Under the pieces are notes generated by a model, which saw only the letters and a list, made by a program, of their open reading frames with translations, ran no database searches and had not been told where the DNA came from. Made by a program: the position numbers and the translations under genes. A stretch of DNA of 64,000 nucleotides from Eledone cirrhosa (Eukaryota): positions 11,780,001-11,844,000 of the forward strand of contig OZ024761.1 in assembly GCA_964016885.1 (NCBI GenBank), written 5' to 3'. Below, piece by piece: positions 21,584 through 39,373 of this stretch; the first letter of the stretch is position 1, and each line of letters starts with the position of its first letter.

Positions 21584-24500
21584 GTATGTTTCTTTGTTAT
21601 TATTATTGTTGTTGTTGTTATTACTAGGGTAGTGGTTTAACAGAGTTATTAGAGCGTCTTTGTTCAGTTCTTGACATTCTGAGTCCAAATCCCACCAAAG
21701 TTATGTTTGCCTAGATAAATAGTTTTTATCATTGATAAAAAGCACCCAGTCCACACTGAGAAGTGGTCATATAGGTGTCATGATAAAAAGCACCCAGTCC
21801 ACACTGAGAACTGGTCATATAGGTGTCATGATAAAAAGCACCCAGTCCACACTGAGAACTGGTCATATAGGTGTCATGATAAAAAGTGCCCTGTCCACAC
21901 TGAGAACTGGTCATATAGGTGTCATGATAAAAAGCACCCAGTCCACACTGAGAACTGGTCATATAGGTGTCATGATAAAAAGCACCCAGTCCACACTGAG
22001 AACTGGTCATATAGGTGTCATGATAAAAAGTGGCCTGTCCACACTGAGAACTGGTCATATAGGTGTCATGATAAAAAGTGGCCTGTCCACACTGAGAACT
22101 GGTCATATAGGTGTCATGATAAAAAGTGCCCTGTCCACACTGAGAACTGGTCATATAGGTGTCATGATAAAAAGCACCCAGTCCACACTGAGAACTGGTC
22201 ATATAGGTGTCATGATAAAAAGCACCCAGTCCACACTGAGAACTGGTCATATAGGTGTCATGATAAAAAGCACCCAGTCCACACTGAGAACTGGTCATAT
22301 AGGTGTCATGATAAAAAGCACCCAGTCCACACTGAGAACTGGTCATATAGGTGTCATGATAAAAAGCACCCAGTCCACACTGAGAACTGGTCATATAGGT
22401 GTCATGATAAAAAGCACCCAGTCCACACTGAGAACTGGTCATATAGGTGTCATGATAAAAAGCACCCAGTCCACACTGAGAACTGGTCATATAGGTGTCA
22501 TGATAAAAAGCACCCAGTCCACACTGAGAACTGGTCATATAGGTGTCATGATAAAAAGCACCCAGTCCACACTGAGAACTGGTCATATAGGTGTCATGAT
22601 AAAAAGTGCCCTGTCCACACTGAGAACTGGTCATATAGGTGTCATGATAAAAAGTGCCCTGTCCACACTGAGAAGTGGTCATGGAGGTGACACGACAAAA
22701 AGCACCCAGTGTAAATGTGGTTAGCGTTAGGAAGGGCATCCATCCAAAGAAACCATGCCAGAAACAGTTCTGTATGAACAAGACATGGAACAACTTGTCT
22801 AACACATACTAGCATGAAAAAATAGACATTAAAGGTGATGATGAGGAATCTGGTGTGGTTTCAGGTGGGTTGGTATCAATAGTTTGGCATGGCCATCTGG
22901 TCTGTCCCTCTTCACAGTGGTGCCACCCAGTTCCAGGCTTTTAAATATGCTTCTGCTGTCATTATGGTGCCATCCAGTCCCATACTGTAAATGTGGTTGG
23001 TGTAGGAAGGGCACCTAGCTGTAAAATCCCCATCCAAATTTACGGTCCCGTCAAAGCAAGGTGTGGCATGACCAGTCCTGGCTAGATTTGTCTCTTGATG
23101 CGGACAACTTGTCTGGCCCATGCTAGCATGGAAAAATGGAGGCTAATCCTTTAGTACATTACTCTATATATACTATTGTATTTTCATGGTAAAGGCTTTA
23201 GCTTACATAACATTTACATTACTCTATATATACTATTGTATTTTCATGGGAAAGGCTTTAGCTTACATAATATTTACATTACTCTATATATACTATTGTA
23301 TTTTCATGGTAAAGGCTTTAGCTTACATAACATTTACATTACTCTATATATACTATTGTATTTTCATGGGAAAGGCTTTAGCTTACATAATATTTACATT
23401 ACTCTATATATACTATTGTATTTTCATGGTAAAGGCTTTAGCTTACATAACATTTACATTACTCTATATATACTATTGTATTTTCATGGGAAAGGCTTTA
23501 GCTTACATAATATTTACATTACTCTATATATACTATTGTATTTTCATGGGAAAGGCTTTAGCTTACATAACATTTACATTACTCTATATATACTATTGTA
23601 TTTTCATGGTAAAGGCTTTAGCTTACATAATATTTACATTACTCTATATATACTATTGTATTTTCATGGGAAAGGCTTTAGCTTACATAATATTTACATT
23701 ACTCTATATATACTATTGTATTTTCATGGTAAAGGCTTTAGCTTACATAATATTTACATTACTCTATATATACTATTGTATTTTCATGGGAAAGGCTTTA
23801 GCTTACATAATATTTACATTACTCTATATATACTATTGTATTTTCATGGTAAAGGCTTTAGCTTACATAATATTTACATTACTCTATATATACTATTGTA
23901 TTTTCATGGGAAAGGCTTTAGCTTACATAATATCGAATCTATGAGATTTTGATATTATTTATTTTGAGAACAATACCTTAATGTCAGTATGAGTGGCTGG
24001 TTACGGCCGGTTTGAACAGAAAGGGGTGAAAGAATTCTGGCCGGATACGGCTGGTTTAAACACTAAAGGGTTAAACGGTGTTGATGATGATGATGATATA
24101 TAATATATTTACTGTAATTCTTTTCTTCTTTTTCAGCAGCATCAAGCTCAATCACAGCAACAGGTCCATATACAAAAACAGCAACAACAGACACATCCTC
24201 CGCAGCAGGTGCATGCTGTGCAACAACAAATGCATATATCTCAACAGCAATCAAATTCAGTGCAACGGCAGCAACCCCACACAGTGCAGCGACAGTCACC
24301 ATCTCCTCAGAGGCAGACAACACCACACACTGTGCAGCAGCAGCAGCAGCAGCAGCAACAATCACAACTACCACAAAGACAGCTGCAGTCACACCCGGTG
24401 CAACTGTCCCAATCACCACCACAACAACAACAACAGCAGCCACAACAGCCACCACCACCACAACAACAACAGCAGCAGCAGCAACTACCATGCCAGTCTT

Positions 24501-27500
24501 CTTCTCCCCAGCAGCCACAGTCCCCACATCAACATTTACATATTGTACAGCAGCAATCCCAGTCCCCTCAGCAACAACTGCAACCAATGCAACAACAAAT
24601 ATCTCAACATTCACATTCCCATTCTCAACCGGCCTCCTCATCCCCCCAACAGGCTCTGACGGCGGCAGCAGTAGTAGCAGCACCACCACCAACCACCAAC
24701 AACAACAACAACCAGCCTACTGCTGCTCCCCTTCAATCAGCTGACTTTATTAAGAAAAATGACAATGTGAAATGTCCCAGTATATTGAACACCCCCCACA
24801 GTAGAGTTAGCAGTCCAACTGTGAACAACTCAATTTCCTCCCGGAGTAACTCACCCCCTATCCGAGTACCACAGTATACCATCAGCAAAACTCTCTTACA
24901 GGTAACCTTTTTTTTTTTTTTCCTGTTTTTCTTTGTTCCTTTTGTTTGTAAATGTGGTTGCGGGTCCCGGACTATGGTTCCGCTGTGAGCAGGGTACAGC
25001 ACGGCCAACTGGTCTGTCTCTGTCCCACATTCATTTTTTTTATTTTTTTTTTTTTATTTTTTATTAATCCAGAAGATTGCGTTGGTATGGCCATGTGACT
25101 GCACATGGAGGATGACCGCTGGGTAAAGAAGTGCCAAGAAATCCCAGAGGAAGGATGACCACGAAAATCATGGGCGGAGGTGGTGAGAGCTGAGCTAACC
25201 TCAGATCGCTGAAGCTCACAGAGGAAATGACGAAGGAATGTGATGAATGGAGAGATGCTGTCCTGAAAAGGGCCCGTCCCACCCTTGCAAGCAAGGAAAA
25301 GCGGACGTGAAATGATGATGATATAATGTTAGGGTATATTTAACAGACATTTACTATGAAAAAAAAAATATTTGAAATTCTCTGTTATCTTATGGCTGTA
25401 CCTTTCAACAAGATTTCTATGGGTGAAGAGGACACTTCAGTTATGTTAAGGGCACAACAACCTCTTTAGTGTTGGAGATCTACACTATGAATTCACCCAA
25501 ATACACTCTGTGTTAAACTGAGTAATGGTTTATGTCTATCATTCAATTAGGCCTCAGTGGTATTTGAAATCGGGACGAAAATAGCTGGAACAAATACTGC
25601 AAGGCATCTCATCCAATGCTTCGGTGATCCTGCCTTGTGCTAGTAACTTATTTAGCAAACCCAGAAGTTTCCCACATTTGAGAAGCTGAAACAAATACTG
25701 CAGACCATTCTATCAGACATTCTACCCATAACAGAAACTTTCAATGAGATTCAGCATGACACAGTAGTGTGTAACAAGGCTAACACATTGAATTACTGGT
25801 ACAGTCTATTCAACACAGGCTTCCCAACAGTTTCCATCTACCAAATTACACTCACAAGGTTTGCTTTGACCTGAGGCAATGTTAACCCTTTAGCATTTAC
25901 ATTACTCTATATATACTATTGTATTTTAACAGTAAAGGCTTTACCTTGCATAACTATTTCACATAATATCGAATCTATGAGATTTTGATATTTATTTTGA
26001 GAACAATACCTTAACATAAGTATGAGAGGCCAGTTACAGCCAGTTTGAACAGAAAGAGGTGAGAGAATTCTGGCCAGATATGGCCGGCTTAAATGCTAAA
26101 AGGTTAAATGAAGTACTTTCAATGCTGGTGTGAGCTGGAAGGGTTGTCATAGTTTGGACAACCTTGTCTCACTCGTATGTTTCAATTTTGGCATAGATTC
26201 CACAGCTGGATGCCTTTCCTAATGCCAACCACTATACAGAGTGTACTGGGTGTACTTTGTAAAGTGGTTTGTGATAAGTAGATCAAAAATATGAAACGTT
26301 TTTCGTTTTTGCCAACTGCAGAGTGGATTCATGATAAATAACACTCAGTCCACCCTGTAAAGTGGTAGTGCTGGTGACACAATAAAATACACCCAGTACA
26401 CCCTGTAAAGTGGTAGTGCTGGTGCCACAATAAAACACTCCCAATACACCCTGTAAACTGGTAGTGCTGGTGACACAATAAAACACTCCCAATACACCCT
26501 GTAAAGTGGTAGTGTTGGTGTCACAATAAAACACTCCCAATACACCCTGTAAAGTGGTAGTGCTGGTGACACAATAAAATACACCCAGTACACCCTGTAA
26601 AGTGGTAGTGTTGGTGCCACAATAAAACACTCCCAATACACCCTGTAAACTGGTAGTGCTGGTGACAATAAAACACTCCCAATACACCCTGTAAAGTGGT
26701 AGTGCTGGTGACACAATAAAATACACCCAGTACACCCTGTAAAGTGGTAGTGCTGGTGCCACAATAAAACACTCCCAATACACCCTGTAAAGTGGTAGTG
26801 TTGGTGCTACAATAAAATACACCCAGTACACCCTGTAAAGTGGTAGTGTTGGTGCTACAATAAAATACACCCAGTACACCCTGTAAAGTGGTAGTGTTGG
26901 TGCTACAATAAAATACACCCAGTGCACCCTGTAAAGTGGTAGTGCTGGTGTTTTTTATCACAGCACCAACACTACCATTTTACAGTGCTGAAATTGTAAA
27001 ATGTTTTGTCTGTTGTGTTTCTTAAGTTTACCAATATATATTTTTCAGAACAAGAACCAGATGGCTCCCCCTAATGTACTTCCACCAAAGCGAACCTGTA
27101 CAGAAGGTGAACTAGATATCAAAAAAACTGTTGATAAAAAACCACCTATAACATGTGACGAGAAGAATGTTAAAACTAGCCAAAACATGTCGCGAGTAAG
27201 TTGATATTGTCTCTATCTATTACATGGTCCATTGTTGTTTTACTGGTTTCAGTCATTGTATTGCAGCCATGCTGGAGCACTACTTTGAAGGGTTTAGTCC
27301 TTCATATTGACTATAGTGCTTTTTGTTTTGTTTTTTTCATGTTTGGTACTTATTTTCCCTTTACAAAGGGCATTGCCTGATTTCTCTCCTTATCTTAACT
27401 TTATTCTCAAAATGCCACTGACTCCCTGTTTCCATCTACAAATGATTAGCAATGCTTGATTTCTCTCCCTATCTTCTTATCTTGATTTACTTCTAAAAGG

Positions 27501-30500
27501 GCCAGTGAAAACAATAATATATATAAAGTAATGTAAATGCTAAATGGTTAACTCATTTTTTTCCTTGTGGTCATATATGATTATTTCCCCTAGTATTAGA
27601 CACTAACTCCCTGTTGTTTTAACACTACCTCCTTGAACCAGTAAGGGTCACACCTTAGTATTTGACACTAACTCCCTGTTGTTTTAACACTACCTTGAAC
27701 CAGTAAGGGTCACACCTTAGTATTAGACACTAACTCCCTGTTGTTTTAACACTACCTCCTTGATCCCTGTCAACCGGAATAAATTATCTTTTAAAAAATG
27801 TATGTCCTGATTAGGTACAGAAACAATTCCCATCACTATCTGAAACGCAATATAGGCCCTCATTTCCAAAGCAGTTGTGCTTTACCATTTCTGATCGGGG
27901 CCTTTTGTTTCAGCGTATTTATTTGTTTCGATCACCAGCAAACTGAACAAATCCTTATTGAATATTTGAAAGAAAAAAATTTAGTTCTTTCTTATCATCA
28001 TCATCATACGTCCGCTTTTCCCTGCTTGCAAGGGTGGGACGGGTCTTATTCAGCACAGCATCTCTCCACTTGTCACGGTCCTTCGTCATCTCCACCGTGA
28101 GCTTCAGCGATCTGAGGTCTGCTCTCACCACCTCCGCCCATGTTTTTCGTGGTCTACCTCTACCACGTCTTCCTTCAACTGGCATTTCCTGGCACTTCTT
28201 CACCCATCGGTCATCCTCCATGCACATCACATGTCCATACCATCTCAGTCTCCTCTCTCGCACACTACATTCTATCCTTCTCAGACACACTTTCTCTCTC
28301 AACACATTTATGGTGGGTCGTTCACGTACATTGACATTGCACATCCAATGGAGCATGCTTGCCTCATTTCTCTCCAGCCGTTGCATATCCTCTGCAGTTG
28401 CTGCCCAAGTCCCACTACCATGCAGCATCGCGCTCCTCACACAGGCATCATACAACCGGCCTTTCGTACGCGGGGAGAAACCCTTTTTCGTCAACAGAGG
28501 AAGCAGCTCCCTAAACTTCTTCCAACCTGTCCTTATTCTAGATACTATGGCCTCGGAACACTATGCTAATCTGATCTCCTAGGTACCAGAGGCTATCCAC
28601 CACTTCTATAGCACCCACCTGCATTTGAAAAATGTGTCTATCAATGCGACTTCTACTGTCTAATTTCCCTGTACATCTACTGCATACGTATTTCTCCCTG
28701 TTAGTTTGCCTGCTATCCCACTACATCTCTTGTGTAGCATCTAAAATATTTACTGGTCTAAGATTTCCTCTGAATGTATCAGTATCGGCTTCAGAAGATC
28801 AATCACTCTATTCCAATATGTGTTCGCTGACATCTTCACTTCAATTCATCGATATATCATTATCAGATTCTGATATTAAATCAATGTCTGATTAATTCTG
28901 TTCTTCATCAATAAAAGAATCGTATTTCTTTTGTGCTTTAACTAAATCAGTTTCAGTAAAACCTTTGAAAAAAAATTAATTTTCATTTCTTGACACCATT
29001 GTTGATATCAATTATCATTATTGAAACTCTGTCTCGGGGCGGTGGATTGGCAGTATCGGTAGAGGGTCGGACGCCATGCTTTGACACATAGAGTTACGGC
29101 CCTTGCCATTCTGAGTTCAAATCCCGTCAAGGTTAACTTTGCCTTTCATCCTTACGGGGGTCGATAAAATAAAGTACCAGTAATACACTGGGGTAATAGT
29201 TGGCCTTGTGCCAAAAGTAGAAACAATTATTAAAGCTCTCTCTCTCTCACTCAAAACGGGAGCGATTAATTTCAACATGCCCTTATACTCAAAAATTATT
29301 TATAAAACACTCTTTGATTGGCTTAAACTAATAATAGTTTCCTAATTCATCTAATCACTGAGTATTTGCACGAGCACGGTGTTCCGTTGATCAGATCACC
29401 TGGAACACTCGTCGTAACTGATGGAGTGCCTCCATCCAGTTTAAAATAGGTATACCTGTATCACTGTGTGTTGTAAGATGTGACTAAAATAATTGGTGCC
29501 AGGGAAAGCATCTGGCTGTAAAATATTGCCTTAAAATAATCCCACCATATGTATGAAGCTTATCACGGCACCCGTAATGCTAACCCTTTTTTATCAGTGA
29601 CAGTGAAATACTTGTATTTCCTTATATGGGTTTATTGTATCTTGGCCATATTTTATCTACACCCAGACAATATCAATTTCTCATGATTACGGAGCTTTTG
29701 TATAACTTCTTGCTTACTTCTCCAGCAATGTCCTGTAAATCGTAACCATTTTTGAGCAATTGTAGCAAGTTAACGTATAAACTTTTGTTTTTAATATCTT
29801 GATGACAGTTTATGTTTTGTACAACCCTAAGTACTTTAGTGAATGCACCATCTAGTTTCTGAAAATAATAGGCAGTGTTTTTTATTAAAAGGTGCATACT
29901 TGGTGTTTAAAGCATTGGATTTGCAATTGGGAGGTTGTGAGTTCAATCCTTGGACCGGGTGATGTGTTGTGTCCTTGGGCAAGACACTTTATTTCACGTT
30001 GAAATGAGTTGCGACGTCACTGGTGCCAAGTTGTATCAACCATTGCTTCTCCCTTGGACAACATCATATATAGTGTACTAAGTGTGTATATGATGTCATC
30101 ATCATCATCATCATCATCATCATCACCGTTTTACGTCCGTTCTTCCACGCTATATATAGTGTACGTATTGGTTGCGATGTACTGGTGCTAAGCTGTATCA
30201 ACCATTACCTTTCTCTTGGACAACATGAGTGGCGTGGACGTTTATGTAGGTATGGCGAGCCACATATATTCTAGCCATTAGAAAAAGCAAAATAAATGCT
30301 TTCACTTTTGAAAGAGGGATGGCTCAAAAAGAAGTGTTTCTTAGAAATATCTTAATAAAAGGGTTAGAAGCTTCTTGTTGTATTCCATTGAAAATAACTT
30401 CACTTTATCAACTGATAGTTTCACATGATACCAATGCTGTGCTCATTTTAGATTTTTTTTATTTTCCTTTATTTCCAGAAATTGCAGTATATGGCTTCTC

Positions 30501-33500
30501 TTGATTTAGTTACTCCTGAAACATTAAAAGGTTGGTTTTAAATTTTTTTGTAAAATGTTGTCTTAATTATGTCAAATAATTAAGCACCTCTACACATTCC
30601 TTATGTATTTCTAATGGCACCCCTCCTCCCTAACTAGTTTATGTATAATATAAAAACTGGGAAGACAAAACAAAGTTGTGATAACTTATAAATACATAGA
30701 AAATCCTTCAATGTAATTGAGCTGACCATTTTAATTAATCTGTCCGTTAATATTTTCACTGCTAAAAAAAGATTAACGAGTGAAAGAAAATCTTAAAACT
30801 GCAAATCTCTGGAAGTCAATTATTACTTTCCGAAATTTATATTGATATTTAATATTTCTGACGTAAATGTGTGTAAAATAAGCAATGGCTATCTTCAGAA
30901 TTGACACTTTTATTTAAAGTAGTAAGAAATAATTTATTTCAACATCAACACATATGTATATTATCAATTTTGCATCAAGTTTGTTAGAAATTATTTGTTC
31001 ATCTTTTTCTCTCTCGATCATTTAATATTGAATGTTAATTGCTTACATTTAAAACAACCCAACAACCTTTTTTCTAGGCAAAATGGAAGAAAAATACAAT
31101 AATGAAATCTGTAGGAAACGTGCAATGGAGAGACTAATGATAGACGGGACCCTTAGAGACCCTTGGCACAAAGGAATGATGGGAGGTGGACGAGGTTAGT
31201 GGAAAGAAATAGTACTATTGTCGAACTTGTGAACTCTTAGTGTAGTGGTCGAGGTGTGCCAGGCTTAATAATTTATTTGACAGTCAATTAATTAATTAGT
31301 TCTACCTATATCTATCTATCTATCTATATCTCTCTAACATGAAACAGCTTGATGCAAAATAGCAAGAAAGATTTCATTCAATTTCTAATAGTTTAACAAT
31401 TAAAAATATTTCAGACTGCCTTTCCTATATACATATATATATATTTATTTATATTTATATTTATATATATATTTATTGTCATTTTACTTTGTTTTTCTTT
31501 TGTTTTATTTATTACTATTATTATTAATTTTTGCTATTATCTAATCCAAAAACTATTTTGAAAAATAAATTTTAGAATAAATACACAACTATTATTAATA
31601 TATCTCTCTCAAGATTTGATCTCTGCCGATAAATTATTGAACATTATTTTCTTAAGTTCACATTTGATTTAAACTATTTTTTGCCACAATTCAATTTAAT
31701 GTTAAAGTGTTGATAGTTGTTAGTCTATTTTACTGTTGTTGTTGTTTGCAAAGAACTCAATATTTGTATTTCAATGTCTTTCACAGAGTTACAAAGCAAA
31801 AGGTCTGAGAGAAAGAGGCGAAGTACTGCCAATCCACAATTTAGCTATAGCTTAGAAAGTGATGTAAGTAAACTTCAGTATATTTGTTGTATAGTGATGG
31901 TGTTGTCGATGTTGTGGTGGTGTTGTTATTGTGGTAGTGGTGGTGTGGGTGCTGGTATTGTGGTAGTGGTGGTGTTGTTTTCTGTAGACACAGTAGTTGG
32001 TGGATAGTAAGAATTCCACAGTACTGAATCTTGGCTGTTGTCTAATAAGACAATGTATTGGACGACCCTTAAAGATGGTTGTTGATCTATAAAGTACCAG
32101 ATTTAATTTTTCTGGTACCAGGCCACCTGAAACCACACTTGGTCCTACAATACCAAGCTGTTTAGTTTAACCATTCTGGTACCAGGCCACCTGAAACCAC
32201 CCTTGGTCCCACAAAACCAAGCTGTTTATCTTAAAGTATTTTATATGTGTCTCAAAACCTTCCGTCATAATTTTATCTAAATACCTATTGTAAGTTATAT
32301 TTCAAATACCAGCTTAGGAATTAGAAAGTTAGTTGTATAACTAAATTCTTCCAAATTCTTGATTATTTTCAAAATGATTTCAAAATTATAGTTAGTGTCT
32401 TTTATTGGAAAAATATGAAACTGAAAGGTTTAAGGTGTTTAAATTTATCTAAAAAAAAACAACCTTTCATCATAGTTTTATGTAAACATTTTTATTAATT
32501 TAAGTTCCAAACACTAGCTTAATGTAAAAGTTAGTTTTATTACTAAATCCCTCCAAATTTTTCATAAATTTCGAAGTAATTTGAAAATGATAGATGTTGT
32601 CTTTCAATAGAAATATGTTAATGAAAGGGTTAACCCTGTAGCATTTACATTACTCTAATATATACTATTGTATTTTTGTGGTAAAGACTTTATCTTGTAT
32701 AATTATCTCACATAATATTGAATCTATGAGATTTTGATGTTATTTATTTTGAGAACAATGCCTTAACGTCAGTATGAGTGACCAGTTATGGCCGGTTTGA
32801 ACAGAAAGAGATGAGAGAATTCTGGCGGGATATGGCCAGTTTAAATGTTAAAGGGTTAAAGATGGTTGTTGATTTGATTATAGGCTATATATTTTTCTTG
32901 TGTTTCATGTCTTTACTACCATATTTGGTCATTGGATACATTTTAAATACCTTTATTTTATTTTATTCTCTCCACGTAGAGAAAACGAATGAACTATTTA
33001 GTTGGATCAAACATTACGACTGGAACAAAACGACCTCGAGGTATGGTGATTTTATTGTTTTTGTTGTTAATGCTGTAGAGTGGTTGTTGTTGTTGTAGCT
33101 CAGACCGATGTAAGGTTTAGCTGAGACTCCTATGAGGTTGCATCACAATAGTTTGTTGGGTGTTTTAAATAATAGCTGCCCCACTTCTATCATCTTTTCT
33201 ATTTGACTTGCAAGAGTGATCGAGTGGCAGAATCAACCCTTTACCATTTCCATTACTCTATATACACTTTCATATTTTCATGGTAAAGGCTCTACCTCAC
33301 ATAATATCGGGCCTATGAGATTTTGATATTATTTATTTTGAGAACAATACCATAACATCAGTATGGCCAGCTATGACCGGTTTAAATGGTAAAGAGTTAA
33401 TGTCATATTAAATACTTTGCAGTATTTAGTTACATTCTGAGTACAAATCCTGCTGATGTTAACTTTGCTTTTCATCTTTCCGAGGCCACTAAAATAAAGT

Positions 33501-36500
33501 ACCAGTGACGTACTGGGGTTGATATGGTTGACACCCCCCCCCCCCCCCCTCTTCCAAATTGCTGGTCTTGTGCTAATATTAGAAATGATTATTTTTGATT
33601 TGGTAAAGTTGAAAAAAACAAAACGGTAATCTGTTAACTGCTTTAAATATTTACAGGTCGCCCACCGAAACATGGCACATCTCCAACCAACAGTCGTCCA
33701 GGAACTCCTGATAGTTCTGACAGTAATGCTAGTATCAAAAATGGTATTGTGAATGGCTCAACCGACGTAAGTATTCTCTTATCTTCTAACCCTAACTTAC
33801 TTTAGATCACATCTACCTACTGTTTATTTTCTATCATTGTTGTTGGACCTCCGTCACTTTCGATGACTCCTGTCCCAGTTATGCTACAAATACTAGTTAA
33901 CCCTTAAGCATTTACATTTCTCTCTATATATACTATTGTATTTTCACAGTAAAGACTTTGTTACACTAGCAGTGGTACCCGGCGTTGCACAGGATACGGT
34001 ATTTTGGAACGCGGGCCACCGACTAAACCACTAATCGTGGAAAAACTACATGCCTGGACAATATCTAAAGAAAATAAACCGAATACTCTGATGACTGGAT
34101 AATCTTTAAGATTTTCCTCGATGGAGCAGAAATAATGCAGGTTTTCACCTAATGCGGGCCCTAGGGGATCAAGAAAATGAATTTTTTTATGTGCATAATA
34201 TGCCTTTAAATTTCGGGAAAATCAGCTAGACGTAACACCTCAAAAAAGCCTTAAAAAGCTGAAAAAATGAAGTCTTTCACCTAATGCGGGCCCTAGTCCA
34301 TAAAAAAGTTGGATTTTCTTTGCTCACGGTATGAAGAAGAGACTGACTAATACATAGTTACAATTTCAAGGAAATCGGTCTGGCGTAACGCCTCAAGACA
34401 CCCCTAAAAATCTGAAAAAACGCAGTTTTTCACCTAATACAGGCCCTAGGGGATAAAAAAGTTAAATTTGTTCATGTGCGTAACACTCCCTGAAACAAGT
34501 AATACACATGTAAAGTTTGAAAAAAATCGGTTGGGTACTTCTCGAGTTTTAGGGATTCAAACTCACAGACACACAGATAGACAGACATCCTCAGTTTTAT
34601 ATATATATAGATAATTATCTCACATAATATCGAATGTATGAGATTTTGATGTTATTTATTTTGAGAACAATACCTTAACATCAGTATGAGTGGCTGGTTA
34701 CAGCTGATTTGAACAGAAAGAGGTGAGAGAATTCTGGCTGGATATGGCCGATTTAAATGCTAAAGGGTTAAATAATGAGGAAATTAGTAATATCACTAAT
34801 TCCCAGCAAATAATTAAAATTTTCTAAATTAGAATTATGGTAATTAAAGGATAAATATTGAACTGTGAAGGCGTGTGGCTGAGTTGTTAGAGAATTGGAT
34901 TCACAATCGTGAGGTTGTGATTTCGATTCCCTGACCGAGCGATGCGTTATGTCCTTGAGCAAGACACTTTATTTCACGCTGCTTCTTCTGCCTGGATTTG
35001 TGACCAGTAGATAGTATTAGCAATTCAAAAGACCAATGGAAACATTGTTTCCTCGGTCCAATTTGGTCTGGGATCTTGTCAATAGACTTGATATATTGAA
35101 CTGAAAATAAAAATTTACACTAAAACTAACATTGTTTTTGATTTTTGAAACCCCAAAATGTATCAATGTTTTTCTCTTATTGAAATATTCTTGATTCTTG
35201 TTTTTTTTTAACCACAGGACATACATGATGGTCTTTGCTTTGTCTGCCAAAAAGCTGGCCGATTATTGATCTGTGATGGCTGTGGTATGGCATATCACCC
35301 TACATGTCTAGAACCTCCAGTTGCTACTTTTCCTAATGGTCCTTGGAGGTGTTACAAATGTCAGGTATATTGAGCTTTAACATTTCATTTTTTATATATA
35401 TTATTGGCATCTGTCAGTCTCGACAGGCTATGGTTCCATGCCAGAAGAATTTATGTCAGCTGCTGATGTCTGTGCAGTATCTGCTGTGGCTGTACAGACC
35501 CACACAGGAGTGGCAGTCCTGTTTACAGCTACATTGGTAGATACTCTCCTCTGGTACTACTCTAGCTGTACAGACCCACACAGGAGTGGCAGTCCTGTCT
35601 ACAGAGACTACATTGGTAGATACTCTCCTCTGGTACTACTGGGGCTGTACAGACCCACACAGGAATGGCAGTCCTGTCTACAGAGACTACATTGGTAGAT
35701 ACTCTCCTCTGGTACTACTGTGGCTGTACAGATCCACACAGGAGTGGCAGCCCTGTATACAGAGACTACATTGGTAGATACTCTCCTCTGGTACTACTGG
35801 GGCTCTACAGACCCACATAGGAGTGGCAGTCCTGTATACAGAGACTACATTGGTAGATACTCTCCTCTGGTACTACTGGGGCTCTACAGACCCACATAGG
35901 AGTGGCAGTCCTGTATACAGAGACTACATTGGTAGATACTCTCCTCTGGTACTACTGGGGCTGTACAGACCCACACAGGAATGGCAGTCTTGTCTACAGA
36001 GACTACATTGGTAGATACTCTCCTCTGGTACTACTGGGGCTGTACAGATCCACACAGGAATGGCAGTCTTGTCTACAGAGACTACATTGGTAGATACTCT
36101 CCTCTGGTACTACTGGGGCTGTACAGATCCACACAGGAATGGCAGTCTTGTCTACAGAGACTACATTGGTAGATACTCTCCTCTGGTACTACTGGGGCTG
36201 TACAGATCCACACAGGAATGGCAGTCTTGTCTACAGAGACTACATTGGTAGATACTCTCCTCTGGTACTACTGGGGCTGTACAGACCCACACAGGAATGG
36301 CAGTCTTGTCTACAGAGACTACATTGGTAGATACTCTCCTCTGGTACTACTGGGGCTGTACAGATCCACACAGGAATGGCAGTCTTGTCTACAGAGACTA
36401 CATTGGTAGATACTCTCCTCTGGTACTACTGGGGCTGTACAGATCCACACAGGAATGGCAGTCTTGTCTACAGAGACTACATTGGTAGATACTCTCCTCT

Positions 36501-39373
36501 GGTACTACTGGGGCTGTACAGATCCACACAGGAATGGCAGTCTTGTCTACAGAGACTACATTGGTAGATACTCTCCTCTGGTACTACTGGGGCTGTACAG
36601 ATCCACACAGGAATGGCAGTCTTGTCTACAGAGACTACATTGGTAGATACTCTCCTCTGGTACTACTGGGGCTGTACAGACCCACACAGGAATGGCAGTC
36701 TTGTCTACAGAGACTACATTGGTAGATACTCTCCTCTGGTACTACTGTGGCTGTACAGATCCACACAGGAGTGGCAGTCCTGTCTACAGAGACTACATTG
36801 GTAGATACTCTCCTCTGGTACTACTGGGGCTGTACAGACCCACACAGGAATGGCAGTCTTGTCTACAGAGACTACATTGGTAGATACTCTCCTCTGGTAC
36901 TACTGGGGCTGTACAGACCCACACAGGAGTGGCAGCCCTGTATACAGAGACTACATTGGTAGATACTCTCCTCTAGTACTACTGTAGCTGTACAGACCCA
37001 CACAGGAATGGCAGTCCTGTCTACAGAGACTACATTGGTAGATACTCTCCTCTGGTACTACTGTGGCTGTACAGGCCTTCACTGGAGTGGCAGTCCTGTC
37101 TACAGAGACTACATTGGTAGATACTCTCCTCTGGTACTACTGTAGCTGTACAGGCCCACACAGGAGTGGCAGTCTTGTCTACAGAGACTACATTGGTACA
37201 TACTCTCCTCTGGTACTACTGGGGCTGTACAGGCCCACACAGGAATGGCAGTCCTGTCTACAGAGACTACATTGGTAGATACTCTCCTCTGGTACTACTG
37301 TGGCTGTACAGGCCCACGCAGGAGTGGCAGTCCTGTCTACAGAGACTACATTGGTAGATACTCTCCTCTGGTACTACTGTGGCTGTACAGGCCCACACAG
37401 GAATGGCAGTCCTGTCTACAGAGACTACATTGGTAGATACTCTCCTCTGGTACTACTGGGGCTGTACAGACCCACATAGGAGTGGCAGTCCTGTCTACAG
37501 AGACTACATTGGTAGATACTCTCCTCTGGTACTACTGTAGCTGTACAGACCCACACAGGAGTGGCAGTCCTGTCTACAGAGACTACATTGGTAGATACTC
37601 TCCTCTGGTACTACTGTGGCTGTACAGACCCACACAGGAGTGGCAGTCCTGTCTACAGAGACTACATTGGTAGATACTCTCCTCTGGTACTACTGGGGCT
37701 GTACAGACCCACACAGGAGTGGCAGTCCTGTCTACAGAGACTACATTGGTAGATACTCTCCTCTGGTACTACTGTAGCTGTACAGACCCACACAGGAATG
37801 GCAGTCCTGTCTACAGAGACTACATTGGTAGATACTCTCCTCTGGTACTACTGGGGCTGTACAGACCCACACAGGAGTGGCAGTCCTGTCTACAGAGACT
37901 ACATTGGTAGATACTCTCCTCTGGTACTACTGGGGCTGTACAGACCCACACAGGAGTGGCAGTCCTGTCTACAGAGACTACATTGGTAGATACTCTCCTC
38001 TGGTACTACTGTAGCTGTACAGACCCACACAGGAGTTGCAGCCCTGTCTACAGAGACTACATTGGTAGATACTCTCCTCTGGTACTACTGTGGCTGTACA
38101 GACCCACACAGGAGTGGCAGTCCTGTCTACAGAGACTACATTGGTAGATACTCTCCTCTGGTACTACTGGGGCTGTACAGACCCACACAGGAATGGCAGT
38201 CCTGTCTACAGAGACTACATTGGTAGATACTCTCCTCTGGTACTACTGTAGCTGTACAGACCCACACAGGAGTGGCAGTCCTGTCTACAGAGACTACATT
38301 GGTAGATACTCTCCTCTGGTACTACTGGGGCTGTACAGACCCACACAGGAGTGGCAGACCTGTCTACAGAGACTACATTGGTAGATACTCTCCTCTGGTA
38401 CTACTGGGGCTGTACAGGCCCACACAGGAATGGCAGTCCTGTCTACAGAGACTACATTGGTAGATACTCTCCTCTGGTACTACTGGGGCTGTACAGACCC
38501 ACACAGGAGTGGCAGTCCTGTCTACAGAGACTACATTGGTAGATACTCTCCTCTGGTACTACTGGGGCTGTACAGACCCACACAGGAGTGGCAGTCCTGT
38601 CTACAGAGACTACATTGGTAGATACTCTCCTCTGGTACTACTGTAGCTGTACAGACCCACACAGGAATGGCAGTCCTGTCTACAGAGACTACATTGGTAG
38701 ATACTCTCCTCTGGTACTACTGTAGCTGTACAGACCCACACAGGAATGGCAGTCCTGTCTACAGAGACTACATTGGTAGATACTCTCCTCTGGTACTACT
38801 GTGGCTGTACAGACCCACACAGGAGTGGCAGTCCTGTATACAGAGACTACATTGGTAGATACTCTCCTCTGGTACTACTGGGGCTGTACAGACCCACACA
38901 GGAATGGCAGACCTGTCTACAGAGACTACATTGGTAGATAATCTCCTCTGGTACTACTGTGGCTGTACAGACCCACACAGGAGTGGCAGTCCTGTATACA
39001 GAGACTACATTGGTAGATACTCTCCTCTGGTACTACTGGGGCTGTACAGACCCACACAGGAATGGCAGTCCTGTATACAGAGACTACATTGGTAGATGCT
39101 CTCCTCCGGTGCAACTGTGTTGTTCTTTTTTCGAGCACTCTTTTCCTTGGTTGTAGTTATTTATATATATATATGAGAGAGAGAATAAGGAAATACAAAG
39201 TTTAGATGATAAAGTCCTTTATTGATAAGGCTATGATACATATTTCGAGGATGACATTGGTTATGCAATACAGTGTAGAAGCTAGCGCCATGCTCTCTTC
39301 AGACAGCGTCATAGATAATAAAGTTACAATCAAGGAGGTAATCCAAAATTGAAGTGACAAGGGAACGTTCCCT

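What the first reader, a model, noticed from the sequence alone, without database searches (positions are those of the whole stretch)
31078..31194. Candidate in-frame cassette exon inserted into the most conserved non-PHD motif of PHF21A
Seen: a 117-nt purine-rich island with a good acceptor (cttttttctag) and donor (GAG|gttagt). It is phase 1-1 and stop-free in exactly the required frame, adding GKMEEKYNNEICRKRAMERLMIDGTLRDPWHKGMMGGGR between ...TPETLK and ELQSKR.... The surrounding ~1.25-kb intron has no recognisable TE, unlike its neighbours. Established: vertebrate PHF21A has a neuron-specific splice switch, but at the AT-hook exon. Inference: this could be an independent, lineage-specific isoform switch of the LSD1/CoREST reader.
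Basis: partly seen in the sequence, partly recalled or inferred. Interest (0 to 1): 0.7.

Follow-up and report, generated by a model that had tools for sequence, protein, structure and literature searches.

The report
Unchanging optional exon in octopus PHF21A
The octopus gene for the chromatin reader PHF21A has a 117-base optional exon, identical letter for letter in RNA of seven relatives and both included and skipped there, which likely retunes the protein by splitting its most conserved segment.

Summary
The exon is real. In 8 of 8 laid runs (seven coded organisms, one metatranscriptome; none from the window's species) 31078-31194 is spliced in. Both forms occur in 5 of 8 runs: a direct skip joint 30530>31787 in 2, and the contig geometry of a skip in 3. 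The exon shows 0 differences in 117 nt, while the flanking exons differ at 11-15 of 129 nt. About 10-13 silent changes were expected, so the RNA sequence itself is constrained. The 39-aa insert splits the most conserved 25-residue segment of invertebrate PHF21A. It lies two introns upstream of the AT-hook intron that vertebrates use for their neuronal switch, so it is a separate event. It has no relative outside Octopus in two protein searches and no transposon match. It is already in automatic RefSeq models (O. bimaculoides X1/X2 versus X3/X4); my paper searches found no description. Pomacea has an unrelated 10-aa insert at the same junction. Tissue specificity, the motif's function and presence in squid are untested. 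Verdict: a conserved, likely regulated cassette exon; new variant of a known kind.

The parts
30479..30530 (+). Constitutive exon encoding the first half of the conserved motif (KLQYMASLDLVTPETLK), ends in phase 1
30531..31786 (+). 1256-nt host intron; no interspersed repeat found, only microsatellites
   Evidence: skip joint of 1256 nt with GT..AG ends
31040..31077 (+). Acceptor region of the cassette: A/C-rich stretch, short pyrimidine tract, TAG
   Evidence: use shown by joints
31078..31194 (+). Alternative cassette exon, 117 nt, 39 codons, phase 1-1; no base differs in 8 of 8 runs
31195..31200 (+). Donor of the cassette (gttagt)
31787..31863 (+). Constitutive exon encoding the basic second half of the motif (ELQSKRSERKRRSTANPQF...)
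32980..33040 (+). Exon ending in the first base of the AT-hook glycine codon
   Evidence: loose ends read into it
33041..33656 (+). Intron that splits the AT-hook glycine codon in phase 1; same position as the human exon 13/14 boundary where the neuronal microexon is used (inferred orthologous)
   Evidence: PMC12234916 passages; PMC11864812 passages
33657..33766 (+). Exon completing the AT-hook (GRPPK)
35218..35364 (+). PHD finger exon

Best explanation
This is an alternatively spliced, frame-keeping cassette exon of octopod PHF21A, and its inclusion likely acts as a regulated switch by splitting the protein's most conserved segment while leaving the AT-hook and PHD finger intact. Shown: inclusion and skipping in relatives' RNA, no base change in the exon, insertion of 39 aa between TLK and ELQ. 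Inferred: (1) the exon's bases are fixed because they carry splicing-control signals read by RNA-binding proteins; (2) in the skip form the two halves make one binding segment, and in the inclusion form the insert's predicted helix continues the first half and pushes the basic RKRR half away, weakening or changing a partner or nucleosome contact; (3) the ratio of forms differs between cell types, with neurons the leading guess (about even odds).
For: Inclusion in 8 of 8 runs; both forms in 5 of 8. In X11, X12 and X13 the exon is its own 175-nt contig, 30+117+28. That is the length expected for a 31-mer graph branching to the skip form; a retained-intron branch would give 174. Depths there are 6.7 vs 12, 55 vs 115 and 53 vs 142, roughly 35-55% inclusion; X1 has one 1716-nt contig straight through. 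RefSeq O. bimaculoides X1/X2 include and X3/X4 skip the same 39 aa. Differences: 0 of 117 against 11-15 of 129 in flanks for the 6 runs that cover both flanks; Fisher p 5e-5 to 9e-4, 9.5-12.9 changes expected from synonymous sites. The junction is gap-free in 65 of 73 proteins held. AlphaFold2 gives helices 344-363 and 369-395 in the inclusion form, the second running from the upstream half into the insert, with the basic half unresolved. The insert alone gives a helix over residues 2-22. Lower synonymous rates in cassette exons are a known pattern (PMC6695735, passages).
Against: No tissue labels, so regulation by tissue is untested. No run is from the window's own species, and 7 of 8 are RNA only by the tool's guess, though their GT..AG joints show spliced transcripts. 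The runs were found through exact 31-mers that fall mostly in this exon, so relatives with a diverged exon would not have been listed. That favours zero differences, though it cannot easily produce them at 9-12% flank divergence. The six tests share ancestry and are not independent. Contig depth is a poor measure of level. The structure models are weak (pLDDT 55-70 over the helices, pTM 0.24), and the skip form was not folded. I found no paper giving the motif a function. No RBFOX or NOVA-type site was found in 30900-31330; only short common words and one ACTAAT inside the exon.
Confidence: 0.62

Rival explanations
1. The exon is fixed because it is part of an A-to-I editing substrate, as for cephalopod recoding sites. 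It would pair with an intronic partner, and its many lysine, glutamate, asparagine and methionine codons would be recoded.
For: The exon is A-rich. Recoding is abundant in coleoid neural tissue (PMC8382921, start of abstract in listing). That sequence near recoding sites is conserved is recalled, not read here. One imperfect pairing with a stretch near 27200 scored -38.1 kcal/mol against shuffles of -31.0 +/- 2.6, best -37.4 of 12.
Against: Local folding of 31030-31290 is weaker than shuffles (z +2.1; 196 of 200 fold as well). The longest complementary match in the 64 kb is 13 nt perfect, or 15 nt with one mismatch. The other two exon thirds did not beat shuffles. No A>G difference in the exon in 8 of 8 runs, though contigs drop rare variants.
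Confidence: 0.15
2. The insert adds a function of its own, such as a new octopod-specific helix that binds a new partner, rather than mainly breaking the old motif.
For: 38 of 38 residues are identical across the window, O. bimaculoides and O. sinensis. The first half is predicted helical at pLDDT 73-84.
Against: Protein selection cannot explain the absence of silent changes, and base-level constraint alone would fix the residues. No Pfam family and no relative among 1.84 billion representatives except the Octopus protein. An unrelated 10-aa insert sits at the same junction in Pomacea, which fits interruption mattering more than content.
Confidence: 0.2
3. It is a by-product: a leaky cryptic exon or an exonised transposon fragment without selected function.
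For: Many pseudo-exons fit the intron by chance (26). The neighbouring RefSeq event, a 24-nt donor extension, is not conserved: its frame has a stop in the window.
Against: Zero change where about 10-13 were expected, and substantial inclusion in several organisms. Single copy in the genome as DNA and as protein. No likeness to the window's RTE-like fragment (shuffle p 0.65) or to the four neighbouring exons tested in frame (p 0.53-0.94).
Confidence: 0.03

Closest known systems
Vertebrate PHF21A neuronal microexon (PHF21A-n, exon nE14; PMC11864812, PMC12234916)
   Same: Same gene; frame-keeping alternative splicing a short way upstream of the PHD finger; PHD left intact.
   Different: The vertebrate event replaces exon 14 and destroys the AT-hook GRP core. 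The octopus exon is added, is 117 nt, lies two introns upstream of the matching intron, keeps the AT-hook, and shows no known homology. Neuron specificity is shown in mammals and untested here.
RefSeq PHF21A isoforms of Octopus bimaculoides (XP_052832740.1, XP_014779927.1 with; XP_052832741.1, XP_014779928.1 without) and O. sinensis (XP_036369241.1, XP_029651183.1 with)
   Same: The identical peptide and the same include/skip event.
   Different: These are automatic models with no statement on conservation, position in the motif or function. Their extra 8-aa donor extension is not open in the window's species.
Conserved cassette exons with low synonymous rate (review PMC6695735)
   Same: Length divisible by three, partial inclusion, reduced silent change.
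   Different: Here the reduction is complete over 117 nt and there is no amino-acid change either, whereas the review reports higher non-synonymous rates for cassette exons in general.
Pomacea canaliculata PHF21A isoforms X1, X3, X4
   Same: An optional insert at exactly the same junction (3 of 5 cluster members).
   Different: 10 aa of unrelated sequence; whether it is a microexon or a shifted splice site was not testable.

Membership tests
PHF21A/BHC80 gene family | PHD finger closest to the PHF21A PHD | tested here: met
   Top PDB match 2puy PHF21A, E 2e-14; PF00628; homologues named PHF21A
PHF21A/BHC80 gene family | AT-hook upstream of the PHD | tested here: inconclusive
   RPRGRPPK is present, but PF02178 scores 13.4 bits, below the 17.4 cut-off
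PHF21A/BHC80 gene family | Subunit of the LSD1-CoREST-HDAC complex | not tested
   Shown for mammals (PMC11864812, sections 8-9); no octopus data, no complex folded
Alternative cassette exon | Both inclusion joints with GT..AG ends | tested here: met
   (relatives' runs, not the window's species)
Alternative cassette exon | Skip joint between the same flanking exons | tested here: met
   Direct in X4 and X5; RefSeq skip isoforms
Vertebrate PHF21A neuronal microexon event | Lies in the intron that splits the AT-hook glycine and removes GRP | tested here: not met
   That intron is 33041-33656; the cassette is two introns upstream and GRP is kept
Vertebrate PHF21A neuronal microexon event | Microexon size, mutually exclusive with a canonical exon | tested here: not met
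   117 nt, simple include/skip
Vertebrate PHF21A neuronal microexon event | Neuron-specific inclusion | not testable with these tools
   Run tissues are not given
Poison (NMD) exon | Introduces a premature stop or frameshift | tested here: not met
   Stop-free and 3n
ADAR recoding substrate | Stable duplex and A>G mismatches in RNA | tested here: inconclusive
   No clear duplex; no A>G in contigs, which drop rare variants
Exonised transposable element | Similarity to a multi-copy element | tested here: not met
   Single match in own genome; no outside relative; the genome search skips very common words

The most novel reading that the evidence does not exclude
Octopods independently evolved a neuron-enriched splice switch that weakens PHF21A, converging on the vertebrate solution through a different exon. 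That exon interrupts an unstudied segment that is more conserved than the PHD finger itself, and a snail has hit the same junction separately.
Probability: 0.35. Interest if true: 0.75.

Novelty: new variant of a known kind. Interest (0 to 1): 0.5.

Why it matters
In mammals, neuronal splicing turns the PHF21A-LSD1 complex into a weaker H3K4 demethylating machine (PMC11864812, summary). An independent, strongly constrained switch in the same gene in octopods would be a gene-level test of convergent chromatin control in large nervous systems. The natural insert also marks a segment that is the most conserved part of invertebrate PHF21A and for which I found no assigned function; the two isoforms are a ready-made pair for finding what it binds. 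If the exon proves not to be tissue-regulated, it remains an ordinary conserved cassette exon that is already in automatic annotation.

Tried and rejected
Transposon origin: a recalled likeness to RTE-type LINE ends was not borne out. Tandem duplication of a neighbouring exon: no signal at protein or DNA level (one of five exons was read in the wrong frame and is disregarded). Local RNA structure and long-range pairing: nothing convincing. Alternative first exon: the first ATG has an AAAATGG context, but the exon is joined to the upstream exon in 7 of 8 runs and no start cluster was listed; contigs cannot show starts. ESM Atlas gave no usable hit for the motif. A third protein search meant to reach vertebrates or squid returned 9 molluscan proteins only, so the motif's state in vertebrates was not tested. 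Published octopus editing or isoform tables: no PHF21A entry in the supplements held for PMC8382921, PMC9699675 and PMC9068888. These files are small (4-65 thousand characters per search) and the large data tables were not among them; one further paper was not held, and supplements of bioRxiv 10.64898/2026.09.05.749416, which covers O. bimaculoides tissue splicing, are closed. Any of these could already list this exon. No complex was folded: no octopus partner sequence was in hand.

Full report
Observation. The flanking exons are 30479-30530 and 31787-31863, and the host intron is 1256 nt. The exon is 70% purine and 44% GC against 45% and 25% in the rest of the intron, but 26 stop-free, frame-keeping AG..GT stretches fit the same intron, so sequence alone did not prove an exon. 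Mapping the O. bimaculoides protein on the window places twelve matching segments from 21488 to 44360. The gene is PHF21A: the best solved-structure match is its PHD finger and the named homologues carry that name.

Splicing. The run search listed 21 RNA or guessed-RNA runs with a 0.05-0.06 share and 3 near-complete holders of another organism label. I laid 8 of the 21, one for each of seven organism labels plus one metatranscriptome. All 8 cover the exon. The upstream joint is listed in X1, X3, X11 and X12, and loose ends read into the upstream exon in X4, X13 and X15. The downstream joint is listed in X1, X4, X5, X13 and X15. The skip joint (1256 nt, GT..AG) is listed in X4 and X5, which also hold the inclusion form. 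In X11, X12 and X13 the exon forms a separate 175-nt contig with 30 upstream and 28 downstream letters, which is what a 31-mer graph gives when the other branch is the skip form; a retained intron would give 174 (my arithmetic). So 5 of 8 runs hold both forms and 3 of 8 show inclusion only, two of these at depth near 2. Contig depths suggest about 35-55% inclusion in X11-X13, a rough figure. None of these runs is from the window's species, where splicing is inferred from the identical exon and intact sites.

Annotation. The peptide search returned 2 of 2 candidates, both Octopus PHF21A. O. bimaculoides has four RefSeq models of 642, 634, 603 and 595 aa that differ by this 39-aa insert and by an 8-aa donor extension; both O. 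sinensis models include the exon. The O. vulgaris and Argonauta models skip it. The event is therefore in automatic annotation already. Searches for octopus with PHF21A (one unrelated review), octopus cassette exons and invertebrate PHF21A isoforms found no paper that describes it; the library lacks most subscription journals.

Constraint. No base of the exon differs from the window in any of the 8 runs. In the 6 runs that cover both flanks, these differ at 11-15 of 129 nt; X3 and X15 cover one flank each (5 of 39, 11 of 79) and were left out of the test. The four listed flank positions are third codon positions, and the loose-end letters that can be compared are silent changes. With 21.0 synonymous sites in the exon and 24.4 in the flanks, 9.5-12.9 changes were expected; Fisher p is 5e-5 to 9e-4 per run. 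The tests share ancestry. The runs were also picked by exact words lying mostly in this exon, which hides relatives with a diverged copy. Even so, zero change at this flank divergence is unlikely by chance, and it points to selection on the RNA sequence. Lower synonymous rates in cassette exons are known (PMC6695735, passages).

Position in the protein. In 18 homologues from molluscs, a brachiopod, annelids and echinoderms, the best 25-residue window of the protein is residues 366-390 of the skip form (0.86 identity); the PHD window scores 0.55. The insert falls after residue 373. The junction is gap-free in 65 of 73 proteins held. The 8 exceptions are 4 Octopus isoforms with the cassette, 1 with only the donor extension, and 3 Pomacea isoforms with an unrelated 10-aa insert. 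An unnamed protein 82% identical in this region, probably a non-octopod cephalopod (inference), skips it, but one sequence cannot show absence. The insert has no Pfam match and no relative among 1.84 billion representatives other than the Octopus protein. It is single-copy in the own genome and resembles neither neighbouring exons nor a local RTE-like fragment. De novo origin from intron sequence is the simplest reading (inference).

Relation to the vertebrate switch. In mammals a neuronal microexon replaces exon 14, changes the AT-hook core GRP and abolishes DNA binding (PMC11864812: passages and sections 8-9). The human exon 13/14 boundary splits the Gly429 codon after its first base (PMC12234916, passages). 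The window has an intron at the same point of the AT-hook glycine, 33041-33656. The cassette lies two introns upstream and leaves AT-hook and PHD unchanged. It fails membership of the vertebrate event on position and size, but may work like it.

Mechanism. Shown: optional inclusion, base-level constraint, and interruption of the most conserved segment. Inferred: exonic splicing signals explain the constraint, and inclusion uncouples the hydrophobic first half from the basic RKRR half. In the AlphaFold2 model of the inclusion form the helix that starts in the upstream half runs on into the insert (369-395) and the basic half is unresolved, at low confidence; the insert alone folds as a helix followed by a loose glycine-rich tail. 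The likely result is a weaker or altered partner or nucleosome contact (confidence 0.62 for the whole). What the segment binds is unknown to me; three searches gave no assignment. Alternative splicing is highest in neural tissue in O. vulgaris (PMC9699675, passages), which makes neural enrichment plausible but does not show it. The editing rival got little support: weaker-than-shuffle folding, no long complement, one marginal imperfect pairing, and no A>G in contigs. It needs raw reads to exclude.

Verdict. Observation confirmed; interpretation partly supported. It is a real, strongly constrained alternative exon, known so far in Octopus and its close relatives, present in RefSeq models and not found described in the papers searched. 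Earlier findings of the scan held nothing similar. New variant of a known kind, interest 0.5; 0.75 if it proves to be a neuron-enriched weakening switch (probability 0.35).

Noticed in passing
window 30531-30554: RefSeq O. bimaculoides and O. sinensis models use a donor 24 nt further on, adding 8 aa. In the window this frame reads K-G-W-F-stop, so that event is not conserved here, unlike the cassette.
   Followed up: partly
proteins P0043-P0045 (Pomacea canaliculata); junction equals window 30530/31787: An unrelated 10-aa optional insert at exactly the same junction, suggesting repeated alternative splicing at this intron in molluscs.
   Followed up: partly
window 33041-33656, candidate 33104-33109: The intron matching the vertebrate neuronal-microexon intron has, 63 nt in, a GT-rich tract, CAG, six bases and GTAAGG, which would be an in-frame microexon inside the AT-hook. 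It is in no RefSeq isoform seen and is probably chance; no RNA was laid on it.
   Followed up: no
window 35484-39117: A 79-nt tandem repeat of 46 copies, 96% matches, directly after the PHD exon.
   Followed up: no
window 27958-28560, minus strand: Open frame resembling the end of an RTE-type LINE (family label recalled) in the upstream intron; used only as a comparison.
   Followed up: partly
window 32630-32860: High-copy interspersed repeat of about 230 nt, about 90% identical to many genome copies.
   Followed up: partly
window 24104-24985: The glutamine-rich exon of PHF21A has longer Q/P runs than in O. bimaculoides (70% identity), while the motif, AT-hook and PHD exons are almost unchanged.
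   Followed up: no
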